Of a stretch of 27,296 bases of DNA, positions 1,321 through 22,183 are shown one piece after another. Below the pieces are notes generated by a model. The model was given only the letters and a program-made list of their open reading frames with translations. It made no database searches and had not been told where the DNA came from. Source of the stretch: a virus. Taxonomy: Duplodnaviria; Heunggongvirae; Uroviricota; Caudoviricetes. Each line of letters starts with the position of its first letter. The stretch's first letter is position 1. Where the stretch lies: the IMG/VR virus record IMGVR_UViG_2531839440_000002; one strand, given 5' to 3'. A program made the translations under genes and the position numbers.

Positions 1321-1420
1321 GTTGAAGCCTGCTTTTTTATACTAAGTTGGCATTATAAAAAAGCATTGCTTATCAATTTGTTGCAACGAACAGGTCACTA
1401 TCAGTCAAAATAAAATCATT
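1321..1420. other. attL-type prophage junction: bacterial B arm, 15-bp lambda core GCTTTTTTATACTAA (1331-1345), phage P' arm
   Basis: Core read directly; downstream sequence GTTGGCATTATAAAAAAGCATTGCTTATCAATTTGTTGCAACGAACAGGTCACTATCAGTCAAAATAAAATCATTATTTG matches recalled lambda attP P' arm; upstream TGAAGCCT matches recalled attB side. Confidence 0.8.
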
Positions 1421-2489
1421 ATTTGATTTCAATTTTGTCCCACTCCCTGCCTCTGTCATCACGATACTGTGATGCCATGGTGTCCGACTTATGCCCGAGA
1501 AGATGTTGAGCAAACTTATCGCTTATCTGCTTCTCATAGAGTCTTGCAGACAAACTGCGCAACTCGTGAAAGGTAGGCGGATCCCCTTCGAAGGAAAGAC
1601 CTGATGCTTTTCGTGCGCGCATAAAATACCTTGATACTGTGCCGGATGAAAGCGGTTCACGACGAGTAGATGCAATTATGGTTTCTCCGCCAAGAATCTC
1701 TTTGCATTTATCAAGTGTTTCCTTCATTGATATCCCGAGAGCATCAACATGCAATGTTGTTGGGATGGCAATTTTTACGCCTGTTTTGCTTTGCTCGACA
1801 TAAAGATATCCATCTACGATATCAGACCACTTCATTTCGCATAAATCACCAACTCGTTGCCCGGTAACAACAGCCAGTTCCATTGCAAGTCTGAGCCAAC
1901 ATGGTGATGATTCTGCTGCTTGATAAATTTTCAGGTATTCGTCAGCCGTAAGTCTTGATCTCCTTACCTCTGATTTTGCTGCGCGAGTGGCAGCGACAGG
2001 GTTTGTTGTTATATGGCCTTCAGCTATTGCCTCTCGGAATGCATCGCTCAGTGTTGATCTGATTAACTTGGCTGACGCCGCCTTGCCCTCGTCTATGTAT
2101 CCATTGAGCATTGCCGCAATTTCTTTTGTGGTGATGTCTTCAAGTGGAGCATCAGGCAGACCCCTCCTTATTGCTTTAATTTTGCTCATGTAATTTATGA
2201 GTGTCTTCTGCTTGATTCCTCTGCTGGCCAGGATTTTTTCGTAGCGATCAAGCCATGAATGTAACGTAACGGAATTATCACTGTTGATTCTCGCTGTCAG
2301 AGGCTTGTGTTTGTGTCCTGAAAATAACTCAATGTTGGCCTGTATGGCTTCAGTGATTGCGATTCGCCTGTCTCTGCCTAATCCAAACTCTTTACCCGTC
2401 CTTGGGTCCCTGTAGCAGTAATATCCATTGTTTCTTATATAAAGGTTAGGGGGTAAATCCCGGCGCTCATGACTTCGCCTTCTTCCCAT
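1419..2489 (-). CDS. int: Lambda-type integrase (tyrosine recombinase)
   Basis: 356-aa ORF beginning MGRRRSHERRDLPPNLYIRNNGYYCYRDPRTGKEFGLGRDRR, recalled as lambda Int; ATG at 2487-2489; sits next to attL. Confidence 0.95.
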   Translation of the reverse strand: MGRRRSHERRDLPPNLYIRNNGYYCYRDPRTGKEFGLGRDRRIAITEAIQANIELFSGHKHKPLTARINSDNSVTLHSWLDRYEKILASRGIKQKTLINYMSKIKAIRRGLPDAPLEDITTKEIAAMLNGYIDEGKAASAKLIRSTLSDAFREAIAEGHITTNPVAATRAAKSEVRRSRLTADEYLKIYQAAESSPCWLRLAMELAVVTGQRVGDLCEMKWSDIVDGYLYVEQSKTGVKIAIPTTLHVDALGISMKETLDKCKEILGGETIIASTRREPLSSGTVSRYFMRARKASGLSFEGDPPTFHELRSLSARLYEKQISDKFAQHLLGHKSDTMASQYRDDRGREWDKIEIK

Positions 2490-5101: not shown

Positions 5102-5641
5102 ATGCAACCAATTACATACCAACAGACTAGCGGATTTACCCCGACTGCGGTGATAAATCGTTCTCAAACAAAACAGGCGCCAGGCCACGAAAAAATCCGT
5201 GATGCCGTTCGCGCCTGGTCGGCTGCAGATAATCAGGATGTTGTTGCCGCACTCATTGTGAATGAGTATCGGGAGCTGGGCGGCGGCACCATCGATTTCC
5301 CTGATGATGTCAGCCGTGCACGCCAGAAGTTGTTCCGCTTCCTCGATAACAAATTCGATTCTGAAAAATACCGAAATAACGTGCGTGAACTGACCCCGGC
5401 AATTCTGGCGGTACTACCGCTGGAATATCGCGGCCACCTGGTTGAGCAGGATAGCTTCATGGCTCGGCTGGTTGAAATGGAAAAGGAACTCAGTGAGGCA
5501 AAGCAGGCGGTCATTCTCAACGCACCACGCCACCAGAAACTGAAGGAAATGAGTGAAGGTATTGTGTCGATGTTTCGCGTGGACCCGGATCTGGCTGGTC
5601 CATTAATGGCGATGGTTACCACCATGCTGGGGGCAATATGA
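5102..5641 (+). CDS. Hypothetical protein (179 aa) directly upstream of O, in the position cII occupies in lambda
   Basis: ATG at 5102 with AAGGA about 8 nt upstream; stop overlaps an ATG at 5638 (ATGA); no motif recognised. Confidence 0.55.
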   Translation: MQPITYQQTSGFTPTAVINRSQTKQAPGHEKIRDAVRAWSAADNQDVVAALIVNEYRELGGGTIDFPDDVSRARQKLFRFLDNKFDSEKYRNNVRELTPAILAVLPLEYRGHLVEQDSFMARLVEMEKELSEAKQAVILNAPRHQKLKEMSEGIVSMFRVDPDLAGPLMAMVTTMLGAI

Positions 5642-5727
5642 CAGGTTCAGAAATGGCGAAAGTCGGTCTGCGGGAACAGAACCGACTTTCAGGTGCAAAT
5701 CGTAACGCACTCATTACGGGAGGAATT

Positions 5728-6657
5728 ATGGCAAACACTGCTGAGATATTCAATTTTCCAGTGCCGGATGTGGCACAAAAGGAGCCGCGCGTGGCAGATC
5801 TCGATGATGGTTATACGCGCATTGCAAATGAGTTGCTGGAAGTTGTAATGCTGGCCGGATTAACACAGCACCAGCTTCTGGTCTTCCTGGCTGTCATGCG
5901 CAAAACATATGGCTTTAATAAAAAACTGGATTGGGTGAGCAACGAGCAACTTTCCGAGTTAACCGGGATATTGCCGCACAAGTGTTCTGCTGCAAAAAGT
6001 GTTCTGGTAAAGCGTGGGATTTTAATTCAGAGCGGGCGGAATATCGGCATCAATAATGTGGTCAGTGAATGGTCAACATTACCCGAATCAGGTAAGAAAA
6101 ATAAAGTTTACCTGAAAGAGGTAAATTTACCTGAATCAGGTAAGAAAAGTTTACCTAAATCAGGTAAACGCCTTTACCCGAATCAGGTAAACACAAAAGA
6201 CAAACTAACAAAAGACAATATAAAACCTTTTTCGTCAGAGAATTCTGGCGAATCCTCTGACCAGCCAGAAAACGATCTTCCTGTGGTGAAACCGGATGCT
6301 GCAATTCAGAGCGGCAGCAAGTGGGGGACAGCAGAAGACCTGACCGCCGCAGAGTGGATGTTTGACATGGTGAAGACCATCGCGCCATCAGCCAGAAAAC
6401 CGAATTTTGCAGGGTGGGCTAACGATATCCGCCTGATGCGTGAACGTGACGGACGTAACCACCGCGACATGTGTGTACTGTTCCGCTGGGCATGCCAGGA
6501 CAACTTCTGGTCCGGTAACGTGCTGAGTCCGGCCAAACTCCGCGACAAGTGGACCCAGCTCGAAATCAACCGAAACAAGCAACAGGCTGGCGTGACAGCC
6601 GGCAAACCAAAACTCGACCTGACGAACACTGACTGGATTTACGGGGTGGAGCTATGA
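5728..6657 (+). CDS. O: Replication initiator protein O (lambdoid, non-lambda allele) containing ori iterons
   Basis: N-terminus MANTAEIFNF...RVADLDDGYTRIAN aligns with recalled lambda O (MTNTAKILNF...NVADLDDGYARLSN); GGGAGGA SD before ATG 5728; alternative upstream start at 5638; internal iterons and AT-rich tract. Confidence 0.85.
   Translation: MANTAEIFNFPVPDVAQKEPRVADLDDGYTRIANELLEVVMLAGLTQHQLLVFLAVMRKTYGFNKKLDWVSNEQLSELTGILPHKCSAAKSVLVKRGILIQSGRNIGINNVVSEWSTLPESGKKNKVYLKEVNLPESGKKSLPKSGKRLYPNQVNTKDKLTKDNIKPFSSENSGESSDQPENDLPVVKPDAAIQSGSKWGTAEDLTAAEWMFDMVKTIAPSARKPNFAGWANDIRLMRERDGRNHRDMCVLFRWACQDNFWSGNVLSPAKLRDKWTQLEINRNKQQAGVTAGKPKLDLTNTDWIYGVEL
6079..6190. repeat. Origin of replication: five dyad-symmetric iterons (consensus TTACCYGAATCAGGTAA) followed by an AT-rich unwinding tract
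   Basis: Copies at 6079-6095, 6109-6125, 6127-6143, 6151-6167, 6174-6190; each half TTACCTGA is the reverse complement of TCAGGTAA; AT-rich tract 6191-6235; encodes the ESGKK repeats in O. Confidence 0.75.
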
Positions 6658-7355
6658 AAAACATCGCCGCACAGATGGTTAACTTTGACCGTGAGCAGAT
6701 GCGCCGGATCGCCAACAACATGCCGGAACAGTACGACGAAAAGCCGCAGGTACAACAGGTAGCGCAGATCATCAATGGTGTGTTCAGCCAGTTACTGGCA
6801 ACTTTCCCGGCGAGCCTGGCTAACCGGGACCAGAACGAACTGAACGAAATCCGCCGCCAGTGGGTGCTGGCTTTCCGGGAAAACGGGATCACCACAATGG
6901 AACAGGTTAACGCAGGAATGCGCGTAGCCCGTCGGCAGAATCGACCATTCCTGCCATCACCCGGGCAGTTTGTTGCCTGGTGCCGGGAAGAAGCATCCGT
7001 TAACGCCGGGCTGCCAAACGTCAGCGAGCTGGTTGATATGGTCTATGAGTATTGTCGGAAGCGTGGCCTGTATCCGGATGCAGAGTCTTATCCGTGGAAA
7101 TCAAACGCGCACTACTGGCTGGTTACCAACCTGTACCAGAACATGCGGGCCAATGCGCTTACTGATGCGGAATTACGGCGCAAGGCTGCCGATGGACTGA
7201 CTTGTATGACCGCGCGAATTAACCGTGGTGAGGCGATACCTGAACCAGTAAAACAACTTCCTGTCATGGGCGGTAGACCTCTAAATCGTGCACAGGCTCT
7301 GGCGAAGATCGCAGAAATCAAAGCGAAGTTCGGACTGAAAGGAGCAACTGTATGA
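6654..7355 (+). CDS. P: Replication protein P (DnaB helicase loader), lambda-type
   Basis: 233-aa ORF MKNIAAQMVNFDREQMRRIANNMPEQYDEKPQVQQVAQIINGVF..., recalled as near-identical to lambda P; start overlaps O stop. Confidence 0.9.
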   Translation: MKNIAAQMVNFDREQMRRIANNMPEQYDEKPQVQQVAQIINGVFSQLLATFPASLANRDQNELNEIRRQWVLAFRENGITTMEQVNAGMRVARRQNRPFLPSPGQFVAWCREEASVNAGLPNVSELVDMVYEYCRKRGLYPDAESYPWKSNAHYWLVTNLYQNMRANALTDAELRRKAADGLTCMTARINRGEAIPEPVKQLPVMGGRPLNRAQALAKIAEIKAKFGLKGATV

Positions 7356-8003: not shown

Positions 8004-8885
8004 CTACTTGTCTTTTTTAATATGATCAATCTCATCATTAAGACATTTATCTATTTTTTTTATTAACACATTAATTTCTTCGGTGTTTTGGAGTTGAGTT
8101 GTCTTAGAAACAAAAACTCGAATAAAGAATTTAACATAGTGATAGGGTTGAAGTACATCGTTATACTTACATAAATCATTTATTGTATACTTGCCGCCTG
8201 TTTCTTTTTTTATTATTTTAGCTTGACTTGTATCGATATCTTTAAAGTTATCTTCAATCTGAAAATCAAGAACCCATTCATCTTCTTTTAAATTATCCTC
8301 AATGATTTTGTTGATTTTCTTAGATATATTTTGTTTATATTTTTTGTATCTGTTGTCGGAAATGTTAACATTAGAAAACGTGTGTTTTTTTTCATATATT
8401 TTTTTCCAAACATTTCTATCAACAATATCTTGAATTATAGCTTGAGAATTTTTATCTAATGTGTTTTTAAGAGTGTTTTCTAAAAACGTTTTGTCTGGGT
8501 TTTCACGATAAAAGTGTTTGATGGACTCAATGAGAGTGTTTTTAGATTTTAAAGAGACAACATCATCAGTTTTTTTTCTAGAACACGCTTTGTTAAGCAT
8601 CGCAGATAGTGCACGATTGGTCTTATGAAAATAAACTTGACTATAAAGCCCACTTCTTGCATTGGCAAATTCTAGTATTGAATCCATACCACTTTCTTTA
8701 TATGCCAGGTAAACACTATTTTCAACTTTCACAGGAATAAATGACATTAATAATCGTCCATAATCATAAATCCCATATTTAACGCCGGAGAAGTAGCTAT
8801 CTCTAAGTAGGTAGTCCATTCTGTCCGCATCTATAGGTGAAGATGATATGATTGAACCTAATAAAGGATATACATTTACTCCCTC
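8004..8885 (-). pseudogene. HD-domain phosphohydrolase (dGTPase/SAMHD1-like), C-terminal fragment displaced by IS1
   Basis: Frame open from 8885 to stop at 8004; contains DADRMDYLLRDSYFSG motif; in frame with the N-terminal fragment once IS1 and one duplication copy are removed. Confidence 0.75.
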
Positions 8886-8940
8886 GGTGATGCTGCCAAC
8901 TTACTGATTTAGTGTATGATGGTGTTTTTGAGGTGCTCCA

Positions 8941-9216
8941 GTGGCTTCTGTTTCTATCAGCTGTCCCTCCTGTTCAGCTACTGACGGGGTGGTGCGTAAC
9001 GGCAAAAGCACTGCCGGACATCAGCGCTATCTCTGCTCTCACTGCCGTAAAACATGGCAACTGCAGTTCACTTACACCGCTTCTCAACCCGGTACGCACC
9101 AGAAAATCATTGATATGGCCATGAATGGCGTTGGATGCCGGGCAACAGCCCGCATTATGGGCGTTGGCCTCAACACGATTTTACGTCACTTAAAAAACTC
9201 AGGCCGCAGTCGGTAA
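8941..9216 (+). CDS. insA: IS1 InsA
   Basis: 91-aa [43 protein letters not shown]..., GTG start. Confidence 0.9.
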
Positions 9217-9638
9217 CCTCGCGCATACAGCCGGGCAGTGACGTCATCGTCTGCGCGGAAATGGACGAACAGTGGGGCTATGTCGGGGCTAAATCGCGCC
9301 AGCGCTGGCTGTTTTACGCGTATGACAGGCTCCGGAAGACGGTTGTTGCGCACGTATTCGGTGAACGCACTATGGCGACGCTGGGGCGTCTTATGAGCCT
9401 GCTGTCACCCTTTGACGTGGTGATATGGATGACGGATGGCTGGCCGCTGTATGAATCCCGCCTGAAGGGAAAGCTGCACGTAATCAGCAAGCGATATACG
9501 CAGCGAATTGAGCGGCATAACCTGAATCTGAGGCAGCACCTGGCACGGCTGGGACGGAAGTCGCTGTCGTTCTCAAAATCGGTGGAGCTGCATGACAAAG
9601 TCATCGGGCATTATCTGAACATAAAACACTATCAATAA
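9135..9638 (+). CDS. insB: IS1 InsB reading frame (transposase made as InsAB' by frameshifting)
   Basis: 167-aa ORF ...[44 protein letters not shown]...; overlaps insA. Confidence 0.85.
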
Positions 9639-9653
9639 GTTGGAGTCATTACC

Positions 9654-10328
9654 TACTCCCTCAATGTTATTTTTAAAATCATATCTTTTATCAACAATTT
9701 TTATAATGCTTTCTGGATTAATAGCCGCTATGTTTTCTTTATAGACATCGTCGTCATTTGATTTATCTTGGGCTTCATTTTTTAATTCTTCAATAATTTC
9801 TTTAATAAAAATACATGATACTTGTTCGTGGGTTAACTTGTCATTATCACTTAAAGATATAATCTTATCGTATTGTTTATTTCCTTCAGTTTTGCATTTT
9901 TCTTTGAAATCTTTTACGGATATTGCAAAACTATCGAATTGGTGGGCAAGTGGGCCATGCCCAACATCGTGTAACAATGCTGCAATACGTAACTCCTGTA
10001 TAAGACTTGAAGGCATTTTTTTTATATCTAAATATAGATCAATGCCCATATTTTTTCGATTGTAAATTAGTGCATTTAAATCAATATTTTTTAATATTTC
10101 ATACGATAAATGCATTACACCGACAGAGTGTTCAAAGCGAGAGTGCATTGCAGAAGGAAATACTTTATATAGAAACGTGTTCTGCCTGATATCTCGTAGT
10201 CGTTGGAATAAAGGATGGTCAATTATCTTTTTTTCTAGCTTAGTTATTCGAATCACTCCATGTATGGGATCTAAAAACTTCCCCAGAAGTAAGTCTTCAA
10301 AGTTCTCAAGTTTGTTTTTGTTTGTCAT
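9654..10328 (-). pseudogene. HD-domain phosphohydrolase (dGTPase/SAMHD1-like), N-terminal fragment interrupted by IS1
   Basis: ATG at 10326-10328; 225 codons up to the IS1 boundary; motifs HSRFEHSVGVMHLS and LLHDVGHGPLAH; the listed ORF 9573-10328 reads 26 codons into IS1 before stopping. Confidence 0.75.
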
Positions 10329-10687: not shown

Positions 10688-12190
10688 TTAAATTGCATCT
10701 GCAAACTCTGGGATTTTTCGCTCAAGTATGATTGATGAGTTGCTGTTGTCGCTTTTTTTATTTTCATGATTACGAATAGCCAATGACTCATTAAAGTCTT
10801 TTGCGACTGCTGTCTCAATAAATTCAATTTCTGAATCAGAGTGTTTTTTAACAGCTTCTTTGATCTCATCCAGAGTAACATAGAAAAACTCTTTTCTACG
10901 ATTTACAAGATTGACTCTCTTTTTATCGAAGACATCATGTAGTTCTTTTTCTAATGATGGAGCGTCCTCCGAATAAATCATGGCATGCACATCAAAAATA
11001 AAAGGAACAGATGCATCACCAAGCTCATTTACACGGTCTTGTGGATCAAGACGTCGTGTCATGCCTATTTTATAAACATTCTCCCCAAAAGAACCTATGT
11101 TCGAAATAATATAAACATGACCTTGTTTGGTTTGTTGTGCCATGGATAATGCTCTTTGATGCTTTGATTCAGCCTGCGACAAACTCTGTTCTAGTTCGGC
11201 AATGCGATTTTCGAGGCGCTGCTTCATGTCACCAGTAACTTTTTCCATTTCCTTTCTTGCAGCTTCAATTGCTTTTTTATAACGGCGCTCTTCTGCCTCT
11301 GCGTCTTGCATGGCCTTTTCTATTTCTCGTTGTGCACGCTCCTCCTCTCTCATTTGTGCCCTTATTTCTGCCTGTTCTTCTTTTTCTTTCTGTTTTTGCT
11401 CACGATATTCATGGGTAAGCCACAACTCCTCAAGTTTTTTATTAAGGTATTTAGTATTTATATATATGTGATTTTGCTCGTTTAGTTTATTTATGGCCTC
11501 AAATGCCTTTGTGATGCGTTCTTCCATTTTAGTGATATTTTTCCACGTGCAATTACTAATTGCAGCATCACATTCATTATTAAATGCTCTAGTAGTTAGC
11601 CTAATATTTCTGTCTGTCATTTTTTTACCCTCTGCTCGAGAGCCTTCAACAGTCCATTGGGTTGTGCAATATACTGCACCAGAGTGGGTTTTATCCCGCA
11701 GCATTAATTTCTGTTCATCCCTGATGGATTTTATTTTGTTTTTAAATTGCTCTGAATCTTCAAAATTAAAATGAGGTTCGTAAAATCCTAGTTCGGCTAG
11801 TTCAACATCTTCTGAATAAATAGAAATTTGCTTTACTAACTTATCATATATTTCTTTCTTCTCTTTATAAGTTCTTCTTAGTTCTTGGATTTGTTTATTG
11901 ATACCATCCATTTTTTCAATGGTGTTTGTTAGTTCATTATTGGCATTTTCTTTTACTTTTTGGGACTCTTCTTTTATAATGGAGCATTCTTGCTCTGTTT
12001 TCTCAATAAGCTTCTTACATTCCTCTTCCATATTAAAATAATCTGCAAAGCGAGATTTGTATTCTTCATTTTTTTGATTGCTATCACTTAATTCTAATTG
12101 TATTTTTTTGATGCGTTTGATTGCAGCTATATATAGAACAAGAACAACCAATAAAAATATGATTGCAAGTAATAGTGGAGTTTGAGTCAT
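10688..12190 (-). CDS. Membrane-anchored coiled-coil protein with DUF4041-like central region and C-terminal T5orf172 (GIY-YIG-like) domain; candidate defence protein
   Basis: 500 aa; N-terminal helix PLLLAIIFLLVVLVLYIAAI; long K/E-rich heptad segments; C-terminal GHVYIISNIGSFGENVYKIGMTRRLDPQDRVNELGDASVPFIFDVHAMIY...; AT-rich. Confidence 0.8.
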   Translation of the reverse strand: MTQTPLLLAIIFLLVVLVLYIAAIKRIKKIQLELSDSNQKNEEYKSRFADYFNMEEECKKLIEKTEQECSIIKEESQKVKENANNELTNTIEKMDGINKQIQELRRTYKEKKEIYDKLVKQISIYSEDVELAELGFYEPHFNFEDSEQFKNKIKSIRDEQKLMLRDKTHSGAVYCTTQWTVEGSRAEGKKMTDRNIRLTTRAFNNECDAAISNCTWKNITKMEERITKAFEAINKLNEQNHIYINTKYLNKKLEELWLTHEYREQKQKEKEEQAEIRAQMREEERAQREIEKAMQDAEAEERRYKKAIEAARKEMEKVTGDMKQRLENRIAELEQSLSQAESKHQRALSMAQQTKQGHVYIISNIGSFGENVYKIGMTRRLDPQDRVNELGDASVPFIFDVHAMIYSEDAPSLEKELHDVFDKKRVNLVNRRKEFFYVTLDEIKEAVKKHSDSEIEFIETAVAKDFNESLAIRNHENKKSDNSNSSIILERKIPEFADAI

Positions 12191-12616: not shown

Positions 12617-13072
12617 ATGAACCTACCACAAGATGGCATCAAATTACATCGTGGCAACTTCACCGCTATCGGCCAGCAGATCCAGCCTTATCTGGAGGAC
12701 GGAAAATGCTTTCGCATGGTGCTTAAACCGTGGCGTGAGAAACGCAGTCTTTCCCAGAGTGCACTCAGCCACATGTGGTACAGCGAAATCAGTGAATACC
12801 TTATCAGCAGGGGTAAAACGTTCGCCACTCCAGCTTGGGTAAAAGATGCTCTCAAACACACATATCTCGGTTATGAAACCAAAGACCTGGTTGATGTCGT
12901 AACCGGTGATATCACCACTATCCAGTCGTTACGCCATACCTCCGACCTTGATACCGGAGAGATGTATGTCTTCCTGTGTAAGGTTGAAGCCTGGGCGATG
13001 AATATTGGCTGCCACCTGACTATTCCGCAGAGCTGCGAGTTCCAGCTGCTGCGTGATAAGCAGGAGGCGTAA
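12617..13072 (+). CDS. ybcN: YbcN-like lambdoid nin-region protein (151 aa)
   Basis: [58 protein letters not shown]... recalled as DLP12 YbcN family; GGAGG SD upstream. Confidence 0.65.
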
Positions 13073-13242
13073 TGGCTACACCGCTTATTCGTGTCATGAA
13101 CGGACACATCTACAAAATACCAAATCGTCGTAAGCGTAGGCCTGAGCTGAAACCATCCGAAATACCAACACTGCTCGGATATACCGCCAGCCTGGTTGAT
13201 AAAAAATGGTTGCGACTGGCAGCAAGGAGGAATCATGGCTGA
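13072..13242 (+). CDS. ninE: NinE-like protein (56 aa)
   Basis: ATG overlaps previous stop (TAATG); [56 protein letters not shown]; below ORF-track cutoff. Confidence 0.6.
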   Translation: MATPLIRVMNGHIYKIPNRRKRRPELKPSEIPTLLGYTASLVDKKWLRLAARRNHG

Positions 13243-13525
13243 TTTGAGAAAAGCAGCGCGTGGTCGGGAATGCCAGGTAAGAATCCCTGGCGTATGTAAT
13301 GGCAATCCTGAAACGTCTGTACTGGCACATATCCGGCTGGCTGGATTGTGCGGTACCGGTATCAAACCGCCAGACCTGATTGCCACCATTGCATGTTCTG
13401 CCTGTCACGACGAGATCGACCGTCGCACGCATTTTGTTGACGCTGGATATGCAAAAGAATGCGCGCTGGAAGGTATGGCGAGAACGCAGGTTATCTGGCT
13501 GAAAGAGGGGGTAATTAAGGCGTGA
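13235..13525 (+). CDS. ybcO: YbcO-like Cys-rich putative nuclease (DUF1364 family)
   Basis: 96 aa from [42 protein letters not shown]...; CxxxxxxxC and CSACH motifs; sits before rusA as in DLP12-type prophages. Confidence 0.65.
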
Positions 13526-13884
13526 ATACCTACAATATCACATTACCCTGGCCGCCGAGCAATAATCGCTATTACCGCCATAATCGCGGGCGCACGCACA
13601 TCAGCGCAGAGGGGCAGGCATACCGCGAAAACGTCGCCCGAATCATTAAAAACGCAATGCTGGATATCGGCCTGGCTATGCCTGTGAAAATCCGCATTGA
13701 GTGTCACATGCCGGATCGCCGTCGCCGTGACCTGGATAATCTACAAAAGGCCGCTTTTGACGCACTCACCAAAGCAGGTTTCTGGTTGGATGATGCTCAG
13801 GTCGTTGATTACCGCGTTGTGAAGATGCCGGTTGTCAAAGGTGGAAAGCTGGAACTGACCATCACTGAACAGGGAGATGAATGA
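13522..13884 (+). CDS. rusA: RusA Holliday-junction resolvase
   Basis: 120-aa [45 protein letters not shown]...[10 protein letters not shown], recalled RusA sequence. Confidence 0.85.
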
Positions 13885-14021: not shown

Positions 14022-14106
14022 AGTCAGAGATAACAATCAACTAATACTGTTTTGTTGATTTTTGCTTGTAATTGGCGTTCTGGTCTGAGTTTTGTGGAGT
14101 AAGTTG

Positions 14107-14484
14107 ATGCGTGATATTCAGATGGTTCTTGAGCGTTGGGGAGCGTGGGCGGCTAATAATCATGAAGATGTGACCTGGTCGTCCATTGCCGCCGGTTTTA
14201 AGGGATTAATTCCTTCAAAAGTAAAATCTCGCCCACAATGTTGTGACGATGACGCGATGATCATTTGCGGGTGCATGGCCCGTCTGAAAAAGAACAACAG
14301 CGATTTGCATGATTTATTGGTGGACTATTATGTCGGCGGCATGACTTTTATGGCGCTTGCACGTAAGCATGGGCGATCTGATTGTTGGGTTGGCAGGATG
14401 CTCCAGAAAGCTGAGGGCGTAGTGGAGGGTATGCTGATGGTGTTGGATCTCCGATTGGAGATGGATGCTGATTGTTCGAAATAA
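14107..14484 (+). CDS. Late-gene antiterminator Q (phage 82 / DLP12 QuuD-type)
   Basis: ATG at 14107 preceded by GGAG; [36 protein letters not shown]...; the ORF-track start at 14092 is a TTG. Confidence 0.75.
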
Positions 14485-14639: not shown

Positions 14640-15111
14640 TTATTGTTTAACCCATAATAATTCATTGACATTGAATCCCAACTTTTGAGCGGTTCGCACA
14701 TAGTCTGCTTTTACTTTATCTGGAATAGTTGGGGTCCTTGCCAGAATCCATAGGTATTCTCTGTTCGGACCACTGACAAGAGCATACTTATACTCATCAT
14801 CCAGTTTGATTACATTATAGCCACCATAGAAGGGGCCAAAAAACGAAACCTTCAACGCTGCAGTTTTAGTATCTCCAGTAAAGTATGCTTTACCTTCGCT
14901 CTCGCTCCATTTATTTTTCGTTGGATCGTATCCACGGTTAAGTACACGAATCCCTCCGTCGTTCCGTTTTCCATAAGTAGCGCTGACCTGTTCCAGACCA
15001 CGTTCGAATCGGTTCTCGAGGCGAGCTATTTCATACCACTTTCCGAGGTAGCGGTTGGCGTCAAAATTTGTAATCGGCTGCACACCTTTAGGTGGTGTCG
15101 GGACCTTACAT
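14640..15111 (-). pseudogene. Blc-type bacterial lipocalin, main body separated from its start and signal peptide by an IS66-family insertion
   Basis: NFDANRYLGKWYEIARLENRFERGLEQVSATY...KVSFFGPFYGGYNVI matches recalled Blc; the reported TTG start at 15120-15122 lies inside the IS terminal repeat. Confidence 0.8.
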
Positions 15112-15141
15112 GTAAGCGTCAACGGAGCACCGTATTGACGC

Positions 15142-16754
15142 TTATTTATTGGTGAGTACTACGTTCCATGGCAGGAGTTCGTCAACACGGTTGGAGGGCC
15201 ATTCCGGCAGTACGCTCAGAATATGGCGCAGATACGCTTCCGGATCGATACCGTTCAGACGGCAGGTGCCGATCAGCCCGTACAGCAGTGCTCCACGCTC
15301 GCCGCCGTGATCGCTACCGAAGAACACGTAATTTTTCTTTCCGAGACAGACTGCACGAAGCGCTCTTTCCGCTGTGTTATTGTCCACCTCCGCCAGACCG
15401 TCATCACTGTAATAACAGAGGGCGTCCCACTGATTCAGTACATAGCTGAACGCTTCACCCAGTCTGGATTTTTTCGACAGCGTGCCATTCTTCTCCACCA
15501 TCCATTCATGCAGCGACGTCAGTAACGCTTTGCTTCGCTGCTGCCTGGCTGCAAGACGCTCTGACTCTGGTAATCCCCGTATTTCATCCTCGATGGCGTA
15601 CAGTTCACTGATTCGCTTCAGGGCTTCTTCTGCCGTCGCACTTTTGCTGCTGATGTATACATCGTGGATTTTTCTCCGGGCATGAGCCCAGCACGCAACT
15701 TCTGTCAGCGCACTACCTTCACGTTCTGCACTGAACAGCCTGTCATAACCTGTGAACGCATCCGCCTGCAGGATACCCCGGAAGGGGCGGAGGTGTTGCT
15801 CCGGGTGTTTCCCCTGCCGGTTCGATGAGTACGCGAACCAGACCGCCGGAGGAGATGACGAACCCGCATTGCGATCATCCCGGACATACGTCCAGATGCG
15901 CCCTGTTTTCGTCTTTTTCAGGCCCGGTGCCAGTACCTTTACCGGTGTGTCGTCAGTGTGAAGCTTGCGGGTATTCATCACATAACGGTACAGGGCATCA
16001 TTCAGCGGCGTCATTAACTGGCAGCACGCGTCAACCCAGTTGGAGAGTAATGCACGGCTCAGTTCGACACCCTGTCGGGCAAAGATTTCACTCTGACGAT
16101 ACAGTGGCAGGTGTTCGCAGTATTTTCCCGTTAACACGCGGGCAAGTAATCCGGGGCCCGCGATACCACGCTCTATCGGGCGGGACGGCGCCGGTGCTTC
16201 AACGATGCAGTCACATTTTGTACAGGCTTTTTTACCCGTTCTGTGCGGATCACTTTCAGGGCGCTGCTCACCAGTTCCAGTTGTTCTGCGCTGACTTCCC
16301 CCAGATAATCCAGCTCACCGCCACACTCCGGGCAACAGCTTTCTTCAGGCTCCAGGCGGTATATTTCACGGGGAAGGTGTGCCGGTAACGGACGACGATG
16401 GCGCGACTGTCGCAACTGGCGGGGAACCAGCGGGTCATCCTCACGCCCACTGTAACGATCGCTTTCCTGCTCGCGTTGTTTCAGCAGGGCTTCAGCCTGT
16501 TCAACCTCACGACGCAGTTTTTCAGAACGGGTTCCGAACAGCATCCGGCGCAGTTTTTCTATCTGAGCCCGCAGATGCTCTATTTCTCGCTCATCTTCTT
16601 CGATCTTTTCTTCGGCACGTGCCAGTGCAGAGCGCAGGAAGGCCTCCGTCTCTTCAACCAGACTCAGTTGCTGGTCTTTCTGACGGAGGGCTTCAGCCTG
16701 CTCAGAGAGCAGCCTTTCCAGCTCAGCGATGCGAATGAGGTATTTCTGACTCAT
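15142..16754 (-). pseudogene. IS66-family transposase TnpC, split into two reading frames by a frameshift
   Basis: N-terminal ORF 16173-16754 (coiled-coil plus CxxC zinc-finger region) and C-terminal ORF 15142-16137 (DDE region); span length 1613 is not a multiple of 3. Confidence 0.75.
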
Positions 16755-16784
16755 GGCCGTTTTTATAATCCGGCCCGGCGTTTT

Positions 16785-17135
16785 TTACAACATTGTCAGT
16801 GCGTTAAGGCGGGATGTTTTTGGCTGACGCCAGTCCAGCTTATCGAGGAGCATTGCCAGTTGCGAGCGGGTAATGGATATCTTACCGTCACGCACCGCAG
16901 GCCAGATAAACTGACCTTCCTCAAGGCGTTTGGTGAACAGGCACAGACCATCAGCATCAGCCCACAGGATTTTAATCGTGTCTCCCCGTCGGCCACGGAA
17001 GATAAACAGGTGACCGGAGAAGGGGTTATCATCCAGCACATGCTGTATCTGCTCCCCCAGACCGTTGAAGGATTTACGCATATCAGTAACGCCGGCAACG
17101 AGCCAGATACGGGTACCTGATGGGAGTGAAATCAT
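16785..17135 (-). CDS. IS66-family TnpB (orf2)
   Basis: 116-aa ORF MISLPSGTRIWLVAGVTDMRKSFNGLGEQIQHVLDDNPFSGHLFIFRGRRGDTIKILWAD... Confidence 0.85.
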   Translation of the reverse strand: MISLPSGTRIWLVAGVTDMRKSFNGLGEQIQHVLDDNPFSGHLFIFRGRRGDTIKILWADADGLCLFTKRLEEGQFIWPAVRDGKISITRSQLAMLLDKLDWRQPKTSRLNALTML

Positions 17136-17566
17136 CGTCCCCTCCCGGTCAGCTCACGGATCAACACCGTGAGCAGCTCTGGTGAAGGATTTTCCAGCAT
17201 CATTTTACCGTAATGGAATTCCGCATGGCAGGAAGCTGCACAAGCAACTGATAATGCCTCCGGAGCAGGAGCATCTGTAGCACAGCGCGGGGTGTCGATA
17301 AGTTCCACTGGAACCAGAGTCGGAGAGGCCGGAAAAGATTGTGATACTGTAGGGCCTACAATAGTTGGAGGCATTCTACGGGAAATACGTCCTTCTCTTT
17401 GCCAGAGGCGTAGCCATTTAAAAATCAGGTTGTTATCAACGCCATGTTCCCGGGCCAGTTGTGCAACATTGGCATTTGGTTTCGAAGCCAGTTCAACCAT
17501 ATGAAGTTTAAATTCATTAGAAAATATCCGGCGGGTTCCGGAGCGCCAGTCTGTAGGTTTATCCAT
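17132..17566 (-). CDS. IS66-family TnpA (orf1)
   Basis: ATG at 17564-17566 (track start 17569 is TTG); MDKPTDWRSGTRRIFSNEFKLHMVELASKPNANVAQLAREHGV...; overlaps tnpB start. Confidence 0.8.
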   Translation of the reverse strand: MDKPTDWRSGTRRIFSNEFKLHMVELASKPNANVAQLAREHGVDNNLIFKWLRLWQREGRISRRMPPTIVGPTVSQSFPASPTLVPVELIDTPRCATDAPAPEALSVACAASCHAEFHYGKMMLENPSPELLTVLIRELTGRGR

Positions 17567-17651
17567 CAATAGAACTCCGTCTAATTTAGAAGGAGCTCTA
17601 ATTTAGTCTGCAAGGAGCAGGTGTTACAGACGGCATTGGCTTTACGCTTAC

Positions 17652-17904: not shown

Positions 17905-18864
17905 ATGATAAAAAAACCTGTGATTGGAATCAGCGGTTGTCTGGCCGGTTCTGCTGTTCGTTTTGATGGTGGTCACAAAAGAGCTGACTTTTTAATGGAC
18001 AAATTAGTGGAATGGGTAACATTCAGACCAGTATGTCCGGAAATGGCTATAGGGCTGCCAGTTCCGCGTCCTGCTCTACGTCTTGTGCGCTCGACGCAAG
18101 GAAATATACGGATGTGTTTCAGCCACGACCAGAATGAGGATGTGACAGAGAGAATGACAGAGTTTAGTCGTTCTTATATGGACAAATTAAAGGATGTATC
18201 GGGGTTTGTGGTTTGTGCTAAATCTCCCAGCTGTGGCATGGAGCGCGTGCGTGTCTATGATGAAAATGGTAATCGAGGTCGTAAAGATGGAGTGGGACTA
18301 TTTACGAGCACTTTGATGGAAAAGTTTTCCTGGCTACCGGTTGAAGAGGATGGGCGATTACATGATCCAGTGCTTCGTGAGAATTTTGTTGAAAGAGTTT
18401 TTGCTTTGCATGAGCTCAATCACCTTTACAAGGAGAAATTATCAAGAAGAGAGTTATTAGCTTTTCATAGTCGTTATAAGCTTCAGTTGTTGGCGCATAG
18501 TCAGGCAGGCTATAAAGATATGGGACCATTTGTGGCTGCAATACACGAGTGGGCGGACCTTGAATCATACTTTGAGGTGTATCGTGATAAGCTGATGGCG
18601 ATTCTCAGAAAACCTGCATCACGTAAAAATCACACGAATGTGCTGATGCATATACAGGGGTATTTTAGTAACTACTTAAGTACACGCCAGCGTAAAGAGT
18701 TGAGCGAGGTTATACTTAACTATCGTTCTGGCACATTACCTCTTCTTGCGCCGTTGACTCTGCTGAAGCATTATCTGGGTGAGTATCCTAATGATTACTT
18801 GCTTACACAGAATTACTTCGATCCCTATCCGGACGAACTGGCTCTAAGACTGATGGTAAATTAA
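17905..18864 (+). CDS. DUF523 (TudS-like) / DUF1722 fusion protein
   Basis: 319-aa ORF; N-terminus MIKKPVIGISGCLAGSAVRFDGG with further conserved Cys (RPVCPE, CAKSPSCG) resembles DUF523; C-terminal half resembles DUF1722; GGGGGAGG SD upstream. Confidence 0.65.
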   Translation: MIKKPVIGISGCLAGSAVRFDGGHKRADFLMDKLVEWVTFRPVCPEMAIGLPVPRPALRLVRSTQGNIRMCFSHDQNEDVTERMTEFSRSYMDKLKDVSGFVVCAKSPSCGMERVRVYDENGNRGRKDGVGLFTSTLMEKFSWLPVEEDGRLHDPVLRENFVERVFALHELNHLYKEKLSRRELLAFHSRYKLQLLAHSQAGYKDMGPFVAAIHEWADLESYFEVYRDKLMAILRKPASRKNHTNVLMHIQGYFSNYLSTRQRKELSEVILNYRSGTLPLLAPLTLLKHYLGEYPNDYLLTQNYFDPYPDELALRLMVN

Positions 18865-19020: not shown

Positions 19021-19926
19021 CTATATTTCCAGACACCTGTTATCACTTAACCCATTACTGGCCCGCTGCCGTAGATATTCCCGTGGCGAGCGATAACCCA
19101 GTGCACTATGCGGATGCCATTCGTTATAATGCTCGAACGCCTCTGCAAGATTCTTTGCTGCCGTTAACCCGTCTGGTTTGGGCATGATACTGATGTAATC
19201 ACGCTTTATCGTTTTCACGAAGCTCTCTGCTATGCCGTTACTCTCCGGACTCCGCACCGCCGTGTTCTTCGGTTCAAGTCCCAACATCCGAGCGAACTGG
19301 CGTGTTTCATTAGCCCGGTAGCATGAACCATTATCCGTCAGCCACTCCACTGGAGATGTCGGAAGCTCGCTGCCGAAGCGGCGTTCCACCGCTCCCAGCA
19401 TGACGTCCTGTACTGTTTCACTGTCGAAGCCGCCCGTAGTGACCGCCCAGTGCAGTGCCTCACGGTCACAGCAGTCCAGCGCGAACGTGACTCGCAGTTT
19501 TTCTCCGTTATCACAGCGGAACTCGAACCCGTCAGAGCACCATCGTTGATTGCTTTCTTTCACGGCCACTTTGCCAGTATGTGCCCGTTTCGATGGCGGT
19601 ACAGCGGTTTTTCGCTCAAGCAACAGCGCATTCTGGCGCATGATCCGGTAAACACGTTTGGCATTGATAGCAGGCATACCATCAAGTTCGGCCTGTCTGC
19701 GAAGCAGCGCCCATACCCGACGATAACCATACGTGGGCAGCTCTCCGATAACATGGTGTATACGGAGAAGCACATCCGTATCATCTGAGTGACGGCTGCG
19801 GCGACCATCTTTCCAGTCATCGGTTCGTCTGAGAATGACGTGCAACTGCGCACGCGACACCCGGAGACAACGGCTGACTAAGCTTACTCCCCATCCCCGG
19901 GCAATAAGGGCGCGTGCGCTATCCAC
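19021..19926 (-). CDS. insD: IS2 transposase OrfB
   Basis: 301-aa ORF with DDE-type region ...WCSDGFEF...DNGSCY... Confidence 0.9.
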
Positions 19927-20249
19927 TTTTTTGCACGCCCGTATTCAACGGCTTCTTTAAGGAGTTCATTTTCCATCGTTTTTTTGCCGAGCAGGCGCTG
20001 GAGTTCTTTAATCTGCTTCATGGCAGCAGCAAGTTCAGAGGCAGGAACGACCTGCTCTCCTGCGGCCACAGCAGTAAGACTTCCCTCCTGGTATTGCTTG
20101 CGCCAGAGAAATAACTGGCTGGCTGCCACACCGTGTTGCCGGGCAACAAGGGAGACCGTCATTCCCGGTTCAAAGCTCTGCTGAACAATAGCGATCTTTT
20201 CCTGTGTAGTACGCCGTCTGCGTTTCTCCGGCCCTAAGACATCAATCAT
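19884..20249 (-). CDS. insC: IS2 OrfA (helix-turn-helix)
   Basis: 121 aa from [47 protein letters not shown]...; the track ORF begins 15 codons upstream. Confidence 0.85.
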
Positions 20250-20551
20250 CTGTTCTCCAATGACTAGTCTAAAAACTAGTATTAAGACTATCACTTATTT
20301 AAGTGATATTGATTGTCTGGAGATTCAGGGGGCCAGTCTAGTTGGTAAACATGCCAGTCAAAATATATAATATTATGATTCCACGCAGCTATATATAATA
20401 TAACAGATTGGTTTAATAATTTGTCTTTGTGAGTTAAATACATAATTTTATACTTGTGATGCAATGAGATTTTCCTTATTGTTGAACTGGCGAATATTGA
20501 TTTTCCACCTATACTTACCTGGTGTAACCCCAATGATATCAGGTGGATAAT

Positions 20552-21277
20552 ATGCCATACATATGTTCTATCATTTTGGTGTTGAACTCGTTTGATGTCC
20601 GAATTGGTAAAGAAGATATTTTATTTAAAAAAGGAAGTGCTGTTCTCATTGATTACAATTTAAAAGATTTTTTTTCATCAAATATAGATCATGCAATGAT
20701 CGTAGATGTTGAAGAGAAAACAGTTAATGATTTCTTTAAAAGCAACACACTCTCACCTTTTTCTGTAAGAAGGTTTTATCCGGCATACTTGATGGTGGAA
20801 TGTGAAGATTTTTCATTGTTAAAGAACTTGATTGCATGCTTGAATTGTGATGGCAGAACTGTGGATTTTGTTAGAAATCAAATATCACTTGCATGTCTTG
20901 CTATCTTATCTTCAGAGAAAATAGTGCAAAGTTTTTTATTTGGATGTCTTAATAGTTTAGGAAGTAAAGTTAAGGCTATTATTCACACGGATATATCTGC
21001 AGCATGGAGACTTTGTGATATATCTTCAAGACTGTATCTGAGTGAAAGTCTGTTAAAAAGAAAATTAAAGCACGAAGGCTTATCATTTAGTAAGTTAATT
21101 CTTGAAGAGCGAATGGTGATGGCGGAAAGGTTATTAAGCTACAATTTATATTCTGTTGGAAAAGTTACTGAGATATGCGGTTATGAAAACACGTCATATT
21201 TTGTAAGTGTTTTCAGAAGATATTTTGGTGTTCCTCCCCATCAATATTCATCAAGATTTTTTTTAGAAAAGACATGA
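20552..21277 (+). CDS. AraC/XylS-family transcriptional regulator (prophage cargo)
   Basis: C-terminal helix-turn-helix region ...KVTEICGYENTSYFVSVFRRYFGVPPHQY typical of AraC family; AT-rich; ATG at 20552 after AGGTGG (track start 20543 is GTG). Confidence 0.75.
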   Translation: MPYICSIILVLNSFDVRIGKEDILFKKGSAVLIDYNLKDFFSSNIDHAMIVDVEEKTVNDFFKSNTLSPFSVRRFYPAYLMVECEDFSLLKNLIACLNCDGRTVDFVRNQISLACLAILSSEKIVQSFLFGCLNSLGSKVKAIIHTDISAAWRLCDISSRLYLSESLLKRKLKHEGLSFSKLILEERMVMAERLLSYNLYSVGKVTEICGYENTSYFVSVFRRYFGVPPHQYSSRFFLEKT

Positions 21278-21470: not shown

Positions 21471-21686
21471 ATGAAATCCATGGATAAGTTAACAACGGGT
21501 GTCGCCTATGGCACCTCAGCAGGTAGTGCCGGTTACTGGTTTTTACAGCTGCTCGATAAAGTCACGCCCTCACAGTGGGCAGCAATAGGTGTGCTGGGTA
21601 GCCTGGTATTTGGCCTGCTGACGTACCTGACAAACCTTTATTTCAAGATTAAAGAAGATAAGCGCAAGGCTGCGAGAGGTGAATAA
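21471..21686 (+). CDS. Class II holin / pinholin (phage 21 S21-type) with dual-start motif MKSM
   Basis: 71 aa [26 protein letters not shown]...; two TM segments; GGAGGTGAGG SD; resembles recalled S21/EssD. Confidence 0.85.
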
Positions 21687-22183
21687 TGCCTCCATCATTA
21701 CGAAAAGCCGTTGCTGCTGCTATTGGTGGCGGGGCTATTGCTATAGCATCTGTGCTAATCACTGGCCCAAGTGGTAACGATGGTCTGGAGGGTGTGAGAC
21801 ATAATCCTTACAAAGACATAGTTGGTGTATGGACTGTATGTTACGGGCATACAGGAAAAGACATCATTCCTGGTAAAACGTATACCGAAGCAGAGTGCAA
21901 AGCCCTCCTGAATAAAGACCTTGCCACTGTCGCCAGACAAATTAACCCGTACATCAAAGTCGATATACCGGAAACAACGCGCGGCGCTCTTTACTCGTTC
22001 GTCTACAACGTGGGTGCTGGCAATTTCAGAACATCGACGCTTCTTCGCAAAATAAACCAGGGTGATATTAAAGGCGCATGTGATCAGCTACGGCGCTGGA
22101 CATACGCTGGCGGTAATCAATGGAAAGGACTGATGACTCGCCGTGAGATTGAGCGTGAAGTCTGTTTGTGGGGGAAACAATGA
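21686..22183 (+). CDS. Endolysin (lysozyme), SAR-endolysin type
   Basis: 165 aa; N-terminal [18 protein letters not shown] signal-anchor-release-like segment; catalytic region ...[23 protein letters not shown]...; start overlaps holin stop (TAATG). Confidence 0.85.

What the first reader, a model, noticed from the sequence alone, without database searches (positions are those of the whole stretch)
10688..12190. Unusual architecture: TM anchor, coiled coil, DUF4041-like region, second coiled coil, T5orf172 domain
One N-terminal transmembrane helix, then two heptad-rich K/E/Q segments (one containing EEQAEIRAQMREEERAQREIEKAMQDAEAEERRYKKAIEAARKEMEK), and a C-terminal GIY-YIG-like module. A membrane-tethered putative nuclease is an uncommon combination and could be a sensor/effector.
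Basis: partly seen in the sequence, partly recalled or inferred. Interest (0 to 1): 0.6.

Follow-up and report, generated by a model that had tools for sequence, protein, structure and literature searches.

The report
SNIPE (PD-λ-1) membrane-anchored anti-phage nuclease

Summary
The ORF is real: window 10688-12190, minus strand, 500 aa. It has an N-terminal transmembrane helix, a long helix, a DUF4041 domain, a second long helical linker and a C-terminal T5orf172/GIY-YIG domain.

It is not novel. It matches the PADLOC PD-Lambda-1 model end to end (E = 1.5e-198). It is 494/500 identical to the PD-lambda-1 protein of phage PhiR26_1, a phage record from the PD-λ-1 source strain ECOR26. All nine residues named in the published mutagenesis, including catalytic E414, sit at the same numbers.

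PD-λ-1 was found by Vassallo et al. 2022. Saxton et al. (Nature 2026) characterised it as SNIPE. It is an inner-membrane GIY-YIG nuclease that associates with ManYZ and with siphovirus tape measure proteins. [quoted passage not shown]

My own checks agree:
- Hydropathy supports the TM helix.
- 41 of 42 homologues keep an N-terminal hydrophobic segment.
- The GIY-YIG motif residues are invariant.

The gene lies in the P–ninB moron slot of a lambdoid prophage. The only local peculiarity is a neighbouring SAMHD1-like HD gene split by IS1. Verdict: already known; low interest.

The parts
10688..12190 (-). SNIPE / PD-λ-1 gene, 500 aa plus stop
   Evidence: ORF listed. PADLOC PD-Lambda-1 match, E = 1.5e-198, over residues 1-485. 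494/500 identical to the PD-lambda-1 CDS of phage PhiR26_1. The exact sequence is in NCBI as an E. coli DUF4041 protein, e.g. EFH3247428.1.
12119..12178 (-). N-terminal transmembrane helix (residues about 5-24), followed by the basic cluster KRIKK on the cytoplasmic side
   Evidence: Maximum KD19 of 3.37 at residue 6. Helical in the AF2 model. The property is conserved in 41/42 homologues. The published PhoA-LacZα topology places the N terminus in the periplasm (PMC13190303).
11792..12118 (-). N-terminal cytoplasmic long helix (residues 25-133), heptad-patterned from about residue 78. This is the poorly conserved 'adapter' region.
   Evidence: AF2 helices 5-47 and 54-133. Constant heptad register 5 with score 0.75-0.88. 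The paper reports low conservation of this region and links it to ManYZ association.
11435..11764 (-). DUF4041 globular domain (AF2 about 143-244; Pfam 198-252), which binds DNA and tape measure protein
   Evidence: Pfam PF13250, E = 1.2e-19. pLDDT 88-97. Invariant R201, A202, F203, N204, E206 and C207. Function taken from PMC13190303.
11129..11434 (-).
   Evidence: AF2 helices 246-317 and 321-354. Heptad register 1 with score up to 0.88. Specificity-enhancing mutations E264K, K305N, I308V and T319A map here in the paper.
10811..11122 (-). GIY-YIG nuclease domain (residues 357-460; Pfam T5orf172/MUG113)
10949..10951 (-). Codon of catalytic Glu414
   Evidence: Residue 414 is E and invariant in 42/42 sequences. 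E414A abolishes defence and the ΔTM toxicity (PMC13190303).
12191..12520 (-). Upstream region that probably holds the native promoter
   Evidence: 323/330 nt identical to the region upstream of PD-lambda-1 in PhiR26_1. The validated clone extended 62 nt beyond the gene on one side and 282 nt on the other (coordinates). One -35/-10-like site lies at 12311-12283, but the number of such sites in the region is no higher than chance.

Best explanation
[quoted passage not shown] This is a single-gene, prophage-borne, direct (non-abortive) anti-phage defence.

Shown for the near-identical reference protein in PMC13190303:
- The protein associates with the mannose permease ManYZ, through which λ injects its DNA, and with the phage tape measure protein.
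- DUF4041 promotes DNA binding. The paper infers that it also contacts the tape measure protein.
- The C-terminal GIY-YIG domain, with catalytic E414, cleaves phage DNA as it enters.
- Membrane sequestration, and an auto-inhibited state, keep the nuclease off the chromosome.

Inferred here:
- The window allele does the same. It has six substitutions, none at a tested residue, and its upstream region is conserved.
- Because it sits in the P–ninB moron slot of a lambdoid prophage at the ybhC side of attλ, it protects the lysogen against superinfecting siphoviruses.
For: - Full-length PADLOC PD-Lambda-1 match, E = 1.5e-198.
- Pfam DUF4041 plus T5orf172/MUG113, at the same coordinates as the HHpred table for PD-λ-1 in the Vassallo supplement.
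- Same gene length as the ECOR26 gene RCP76574.1, 1503 nt.
- 494/500 aa identical to the CDS annotated 'PD-lambda-1' in phage PhiR26_1, with 323/330 identical upstream bases.
- L253, E264, K305, E223, T319, W257, I308, N250 and E414 are all present at the published numbering, and the length is 500 aa.
- TM segment from hydropathy and from the AF2 helix.
- GIY-YIG residues invariant in 42 homologues.
- The C-terminal domain model matches SLX1 GIY-YIG nucleases best.
- RefSeq now names this gene 'SNIPE associated domain-containing protein', and precomputed Pfam labels PF13250 'SNIPE'.
- Same genomic slot, between ren/P and ybcN, as in PhiR26_1.
- Experimental mechanism from PMC13190303.
Against: - Nothing here tests the activity of this allele.
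- It differs from the PhiR26_1 protein at M54V, Q77L, K120R, E416K, L489P and I493T (written window residue, position, PhiR26_1 residue). Position 416 is two residues from the catalytic E414, although it is a variable column in the family.
- I could not retrieve RCP76574.1 itself. Identity to the cloned protein is therefore inferred through the PhiR26_1 record and the nine matching residues.
- Foldseek with the full-length model found nothing significant.
- No solved relative is found by sequence.
- Expression in this strain is unknown.
Confidence: 0.93

Rival explanations
1. The gene is a SNIPE family member whose substitutions, or the strain background, have made it inactive or changed its specificity. 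On this reading it is a decaying passenger of a defective prophage rather than a working defence.
For: - The prophage is degraded: it carries IS1, an IS66-family element, an IS3-family element and a chimeric Nu1::tail-fibre ORF.
- The adjacent HD gene is already knocked out by IS1.
- SNIPE itself is interrupted by IS1 or IS5 in other strains (H3/H16, H13, H21).
- E416K lies next to the catalytic Glu.
Against: - The ORF is intact at full length.
- All invariant family residues are retained.
- The upstream region is 98% identical to that of the functional clone.
- The six variant positions are in variable columns or are conservative changes.
- The same allele, or one within 2 aa of it, occurs in 21 complete genomes.
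Confidence: 0.05
2. It is an abortive-infection toxin. The membrane-held nuclease would be released on infection and would destroy the host chromosome, killing the cell.
For: Removing the TM helix makes the reference protein toxic through host DNA cleavage (PMC13190303). Many single-gene nuclease defences are abortive (general knowledge).
Against: For the reference protein, infected cells survive and grow at high MOI, unlike the abortive control PD-λ-3. Radiolabelled injected phage DNA is degraded. λ induced from within the cell is not affected (PMC13190303).
Confidence: 0.01
3. It is an SMC-like 'chromosome segregation ATPase', or a ParA-like or SbcC-like protein, as several database records name its homologues.
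For: Source names such as 'chromosome segregation ATPase', 'chromosome partitioning protein ParA' and 'DNA repair exonuclease SbcCD ATPase subunit' appear among the homologues. There is a sub-threshold NCBIfam hit to an archaeal SMC-related protein, 21.9 bits against a cut-off of 300.
Against: No ATPase or Walker-motif domain is detected by Pfam or NCBIfam. The weak similarity covers only the charged helices (residues 22-346), which is typical compositional coiled-coil cross-matching. The conserved modules are DUF4041 and GIY-YIG.
Confidence: 0.01

Closest known systems
SNIPE / PD-λ-1 of E. coli ECOR26 (RCP76574.1; phage PhiR26_1 CDS XSB42081.1). Vassallo et al. 2022, PMC9519451; Saxton et al. 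2026, PMC13190303.
   Same: - 500 aa, 98.8% identical.
- Same TM, helix, DUF4041, helix, GIY-YIG architecture.
- Same catalytic E414 and same numbering of all mutated residues.
- Near-identical upstream region.
- Same slot in a lambdoid prophage, antisense to the early-right operon, between the replication genes and ybcN.
   Different: - Six amino-acid substitutions (M54V, Q77L, K120R, E416K, L489P, I493T; window residue written first).
- Here, and in 21 complete E. coli genomes, a SAMHD1-like HD gene lies between SNIPE and gene P, where the common arrangement has ren. In this window that HD gene is split by IS1.
Other membrane-associated entry-stage defences (Zorya, Kiwa) and prophage superinfection-exclusion proteins
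   Same: They act at the inner membrane at or near the site of genome injection (as discussed in PMC13190303).
   Different: Zorya and Kiwa are multi-gene systems thought to sense envelope perturbation. SNIPE is a single polypeptide that carries its own GIY-YIG nuclease and recognises ManYZ and the tape measure protein. No sequence relationship was detected: PADLOC hits only PD-Lambda-1 and the T5orf172-only candidate PDC-S57.
GIY-YIG nucleases with solved structures (SLX1, At-HIGLE, UvrC N-terminal domain, T4 EndoII)
   Different: Sequence identity is only 11-26%. None of these has a TM anchor or a DUF4041 domain. Their substrate selection is by DNA structure or sequence, not by subcellular location.

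Membership tests
SNIPE / PD-λ-1 defence system | Full-length similarity to the PD-Lambda-1 profile and to the experimentally validated protein | tested here: met
   PADLOC PDLC03976, E = 1.5e-198, covering residues 1-485 of 500. 494/500 identical to the PhiR26_1 PD-lambda-1 protein.
SNIPE / PD-λ-1 defence system | Central DUF4041 (PF13250) domain | tested here: met
   Pfam match, E = 1.2e-19, residues 198-252, 70.4 bits against a cut-off of 27. pLDDT is above 88 across the domain.
SNIPE / PD-λ-1 defence system | C-terminal GIY-YIG (T5orf172) nuclease domain with the catalytic Glu (E414) | tested here: met
SNIPE / PD-λ-1 defence system | N-terminal membrane-targeting element (a single TM helix in the reference protein) | tested here: met
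   KD19 of 3.37 at residues 6-24, followed by KRIKK. Helical in the AF2 model. 41/42 homologues carry such a segment. No dedicated TM predictor was available, and topology itself cannot be tested here.
SNIPE / PD-λ-1 defence system | Single-gene system, sufficient for defence with its own promoter | tested here: inconclusive
   The upstream 330 nt are 98% identical to the reference. In PhiR26_1 and in H22 the gene stands alone between ren and ybcN. Sufficiency of this allele was not tested.
SNIPE / PD-λ-1 defence system | Protects against λ and other siphoviruses by cleaving DNA during injection; associates with ManYZ and the tape measure protein | not testable with these tools
   Known only from experiments on the reference protein (PMC13190303).
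GIY-YIG nuclease superfamily | Motif residues: GIY-like and YIG-like β-strands, a conserved Arg, a catalytic Glu and an Asn | tested here: met
   G357-H-V-Y360, (Y/F)373-K-I-G376, R379/R380, E414 and N430 are invariant in 42 sequences, with position 373 being Y or F.
GIY-YIG nuclease superfamily | α/β core fold (β-β-α-β-α) | tested here: met
Coiled-coil protein (oligomeric) | Heptad repeats that form an inter- or intramolecular coiled coil | tested here: inconclusive
   Long helices appear in the AF2 monomer model. Heptad a/d occupancy is at about the 99th percentile of shuffles in two segments. No multimer prediction and no dedicated coiled-coil predictor were available.
SMC / chromosome segregation ATPase (name given to some homologues) | ATPase head domains with Walker A and B motifs | tested here: not met
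   No ATPase domain is found in Pfam or NCBIfam. The only hit is a sub-threshold helical-region match of 21.9 bits against a cut-off of 300.

The most novel reading that the evidence does not exclude
The minority arrangement seen here places SNIPE immediately upstream of a 515-aa SAMHD1-like HD gene. It occurs in 21 of the 131 E. coli genomes that carry SNIPE. It could be a functional two-layer cassette: DNA cleavage at entry, backed by dNTP depletion.

Two observations point that way. The six substitutions of this SNIPE allele travel with the HD gene. An Enterobacter SNIPE homologue also sits next to a bona fide defence dGTPase.

If so, the IS1 knock-out of the HD gene in this window would be a natural experiment on the cost or redundancy of the second layer. 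My evidence does not exclude this. It fits ordinary clustering of independent defence genes in a prophage hotspot equally well.
Probability: 0.1. Interest if true: 0.35.

Novelty: already known. Interest (0 to 1): 0.1.

Why it matters
SNIPE matters in its own right. It distinguishes self from non-self by location: it cuts only DNA that enters through the phage injection route. That differs from recognising a DNA sequence or a DNA modification. However, this was published in 2026 for a protein 98.8% identical to the one in this window.

The finding therefore adds only three things:
- another natural allele;
- its prophage context;
- confirmation that reading the sequence alone could recover the correct architecture and role.

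It opens no new question. The one loosely open point is whether the neighbouring SAMHD1-like gene cooperates with SNIPE.

Tried and rejected
1. My first exact-sequence look-up used the wrong minus-strand coordinates (10688-12187 drops the Met and keeps the stop). It wrongly reported 'not in the collection'. The repeat with 10691-12190 found the sequence.

3. A profile search of PDB sequences found no solved relative, best E = 0.25 to coiled-coil proteins.

4. NCBIfam has no curated model for this protein. It gave only sub-threshold SMC-like and MazE-like noise. I reject the 'chromosome segregation ATPase / ParA / SbcC' names carried by some homologues as coiled-coil artefacts.

5. The promoter and terminator scan around the gene gave counts no different from shuffled sequence: 9 promoter-like sites against 8.3 ± 3.1. 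I make no promoter call beyond conservation with the functional clone.

6. I considered an operon or obligatory pairing between SNIPE and the downstream HD gene and rejected it. The validated clone lacks the HD gene, and PhiR26_1 and the common E. coli arrangement have no HD gene. V. cholerae homologues have other neighbours. The Enterobacter HD neighbour is a different protein, divergently oriented.

7. I could not retrieve RCP76574.1 itself. The link to the cloned protein rests on the PhiR26_1 record and on residue numbering.

Full report
**Observation**

The window holds one 500-aa ORF at exactly the reported coordinates, 10688-12190 on the minus strand, with an ATG start. It lies in a low-GC stretch of about 33-37% between regions of about 50% GC, as expected for a prophage moron.

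Every element of the described architecture checks out.

- TM helix. The most hydrophobic 19-residue window of the protein starts at residue 6 (Kyte-Doolittle mean 3.37). It is followed by the basic cluster KRIKK.
- Domains. Pfam finds DUF4041 at 198-252 (E = 1.2e-19), T5orf172 at 357-449 (E = 4.3e-17) and MUG113 at 373-449 (E = 5.3e-19), all well above the curated thresholds.
- Long helices. An AlphaFold2 model built on 42 homologues has mean pLDDT 78. It shows helices at 5-47 and 54-133, a compact α/β domain at about 143-244, helices at 246-317 and 321-354, and then an α/β domain at 358-460.
- Heptads. A crude heptad test gives a constant register and a/d hydrophobic occupancy at about the 99th percentile of shuffles in two segments, roughly 92-140 and 288-322. 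'Heptad-rich' is fair. Whether the protein forms an oligomeric coiled coil was not tested.

**Identity**

The PADLOC library matches the protein end to end to PD-Lambda-1 (E = 1.5e-198, residues 1-485 of a 491-position model).

A literature search led to two papers. Vassallo et al. 2022 (PMC9519451) isolated PD-λ-1 from ECOR26 in a functional selection. Their supplement lists it as a single 1503-nt gene (RCP76574.1, contig QOXL01000020, 49060-50562), cloned with 62 and 282 nt of flanking sequence. Its HHpred coordinates are DUF4041 197-252, T5orf172 357-448 and MUG113 373-449, which are essentially those I obtained. Saxton et al., Nature 2026 (PMC13190303), renamed it SNIPE.

All nine residues that this paper names in mutants are present at the same numbers in the window protein, and the paper's last insertion point is 'a.a. 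500'. The residues are L253, E264, K305, E223, T319, W257, I308, N250 and E414.

A tblastn against the phage collection found phage PhiR26_1, whose CDS is annotated 'PD-lambda-1'. It differs from the window protein at six positions. Written as window residue, position, PhiR26_1 residue, they are M54V, Q77L, K120R, E416K, L489P and I493T. The genes are 1474/1503 nt identical, and 323 of the 330 upstream bases are identical.

The exact window protein is in NCBI as an E. coli 'DUF4041 domain-containing protein', e.g. EFH3247428.1. RefSeq now also uses the name 'SNIPE associated domain-containing protein' for this gene. The precomputed Pfam label for PF13250 is 'SNIPE'.

**Mechanism (from the paper; experiments on the reference protein, not on this allele)**

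- SNIPE gives direct, non-abortive defence against λ.
- E414A and ΔDUF4041 each abolish defence.
- ΔTM is toxic because the protein relocates to the nucleoid and makes double-strand breaks.
- DUF4041 promotes DNA binding.
- Radiolabelled λ DNA is degraded during injection. λ induced from inside the cell is unaffected.
- SNIPE associates with ManYZ before infection. ManYZ also associates with the tape measure protein during injection. Defence against other siphoviruses can be independent of ManYZ, and escape mutations map to the tape measure protein.
- The authors propose self/non-self discrimination by location.

TM helix. Besides the hydropathy and the AF2 helix, 41 of 42 homologues at 50-57% identity have a strongly hydrophobic N-terminal segment, although its sequence is not conserved. 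This matches the paper's statement that the N-terminal region is the least conserved.

Nuclease fold. The motif residues are invariant across the 42 sequences: G357-H-V-Y360, (Y/F)373-K-I-G376, R379/R380, E414 and N430.

The support is moderate rather than strong, but it agrees with the Pfam assignment and with the published E414A phenotype.

**Context**

The window is a lambdoid prophage. Its features, in order:

- a ybhC-like pectinesterase gene at 1-1284;
- a λ-type integrase at 1419-2489;
- a YdaT-like gene, then O and P, at 5102-7355;
- ybcN, ybcO and rusA at 12617-13884;
- Q at 14092-14484;
- a lysozyme at 21686-22183.

It is degraded. It carries an IS66-family element at 15142-17569 and an IS3-family element at 19021-20294. 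A chimeric ORF at 25279-26712 joins a Nu1 N-terminus to tail-fibre repeats.

SNIPE sits antisense between the replication genes and ybcN. That is the same slot as in PhiR26_1 and in the common E. coli arrangement, where it is flanked directly by ren and ybcN.

131 of 5426 complete E. coli genomes carry the gene, always on the chromosome. 109 of them match the window gene at 95-99% nt identity. The sampled ones are about 98%, the same figure as PhiR26_1. 21 carry the window-type allele at 99% or more.

Homologues are abundant. Named hits include Vibrio, Shewanella, Klebsiella and Enterobacter. Homologues also occur in phages of Klebsiella, Salmonella (ES18 gp19), Clostridium, Streptococcus and Marinitoga. 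'Uncommon combination' is therefore not correct.

**The neighbour**

In the window-type arrangement, a 515-aa HD-domain gene lies between P and SNIPE (locus L001). In this window it is split by a 768-bp IS1 at 8886-9653, with a 9-bp target duplication TACTCCCTC.

The intact protein is SAMHD1-like. phmmer gives E of about 4e-26 to human SAMHD1 over residues 19-430, and 7e-27 to E. faecalis EF1143. It scores only weakly against the PADLOC dGTPase model.

An Enterobacter hormaechei SNIPE homologue is next to a true defence dGTPase (PADLOC E = 1.4e-109). That protein is barely related to the E. coli HD protein and is divergently oriented. V. cholerae homologues have different neighbours.

I read this as clustering of independent defence genes in a hotspot. 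A functional partnership is not excluded.

**Verdict**

The object is a near-identical allele of a system whose mechanism was published in 2026. It is already known and of low interest.

The remaining uncertainty is only whether this particular allele is active and whether its six substitutions shift specificity. The most novel reading left open is a SNIPE plus SAMHD1-like two-layer cassette, which I rate at about 10% probability.

Noticed in passing
window 8004-10328 (minus strand); IS1 at 8886-9653; target duplications at 8877-8885 and 9654-9662: A 515-aa HD-domain gene directly downstream of SNIPE is split at about codon 225 by a complete 768-bp IS1 with a 9-bp target duplication (TACTCCCTC). 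The intact protein (L001 8128-9675) is SAMHD1-like: phmmer gives E of about 4e-26 to human SAMHD1 and 7e-27 to EF1143. It is barely recognised by the PADLOC dGTPase model (E = 0.0019). It may be an uncatalogued dNTPase-type prophage defence gene, inactivated in this strain.
   Followed up: partly
L001 8128-11537; L010 5001-7054; L011 3501-5554: There are two arrangements of the SNIPE slot in E. coli prophages. The common one (109 of 131 genomes at 95-99% nt identity to the window gene; the sampled ones and phage PhiR26_1 are about 98%) has SNIPE directly between ren and ybcN. The minority one (21 genomes, and this window) has the SAMHD1-like HD gene between P and SNIPE. The minority arrangement carries a distinct SNIPE allele with six amino-acid differences.
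   Followed up: partly
L002 3244-6509 (Enterobacter hormaechei): A 51%-identical SNIPE homologue sits divergently next to a bona fide defence dGTPase (HD + HD_assoc, PADLOC E = 1.4e-109). This is a second, independent juxtaposition of SNIPE with an HD dNTPase. V. cholerae homologues (L006-L009) instead neighbour umuDC-like genes, HipA and an unannotated 523-aa protein.
   Followed up: partly
hits H3/H16 (NZ_CP101915.1), H13 (NZ_AP038814.1), H21 (NZ_CM144251.1): In other E. coli strains the SNIPE gene itself is interrupted by IS1 or IS5, and is annotated as two fragments flanking a transposase. This suggests recurrent loss of the gene.
   Followed up: no
window 25279-26712 (+): A 477-aa ORF joins a Nu1 terminase small-subunit N-terminus (residues 1-78) to tail collar and tail-fibre repeats. 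This implies a large internal deletion of the prophage's packaging and morphogenesis genes, i.e. a cryptic prophage.
   Followed up: no
window 15142-17569 (-) and 19021-20294 (-): Further insertion sequences lie in the late region of the prophage. One is an IS66-family element whose transposase appears split into two ORFs (331 aa and 193 aa). The other is an IS3-family element (301-aa rve ORF plus 136-aa ORF, IS2-like). They lie among cargo genes: a lipocalin at 14640-15122, a YbgA/DUF1722 gene at 17905-18864 and an AraC-type regulator at 20543-21277.
   Followed up: no
window 1-1284 (-) and 1419-2489 (-): A ybhC-like pectinesterase-family gene lies next to a λ-type integrase with an Arm-DNA-binding domain. 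From my own knowledge of the E. coli map, this suggests the prophage sits at the classical attλ site. No tRNA gene is present in the window.
   Followed up: no
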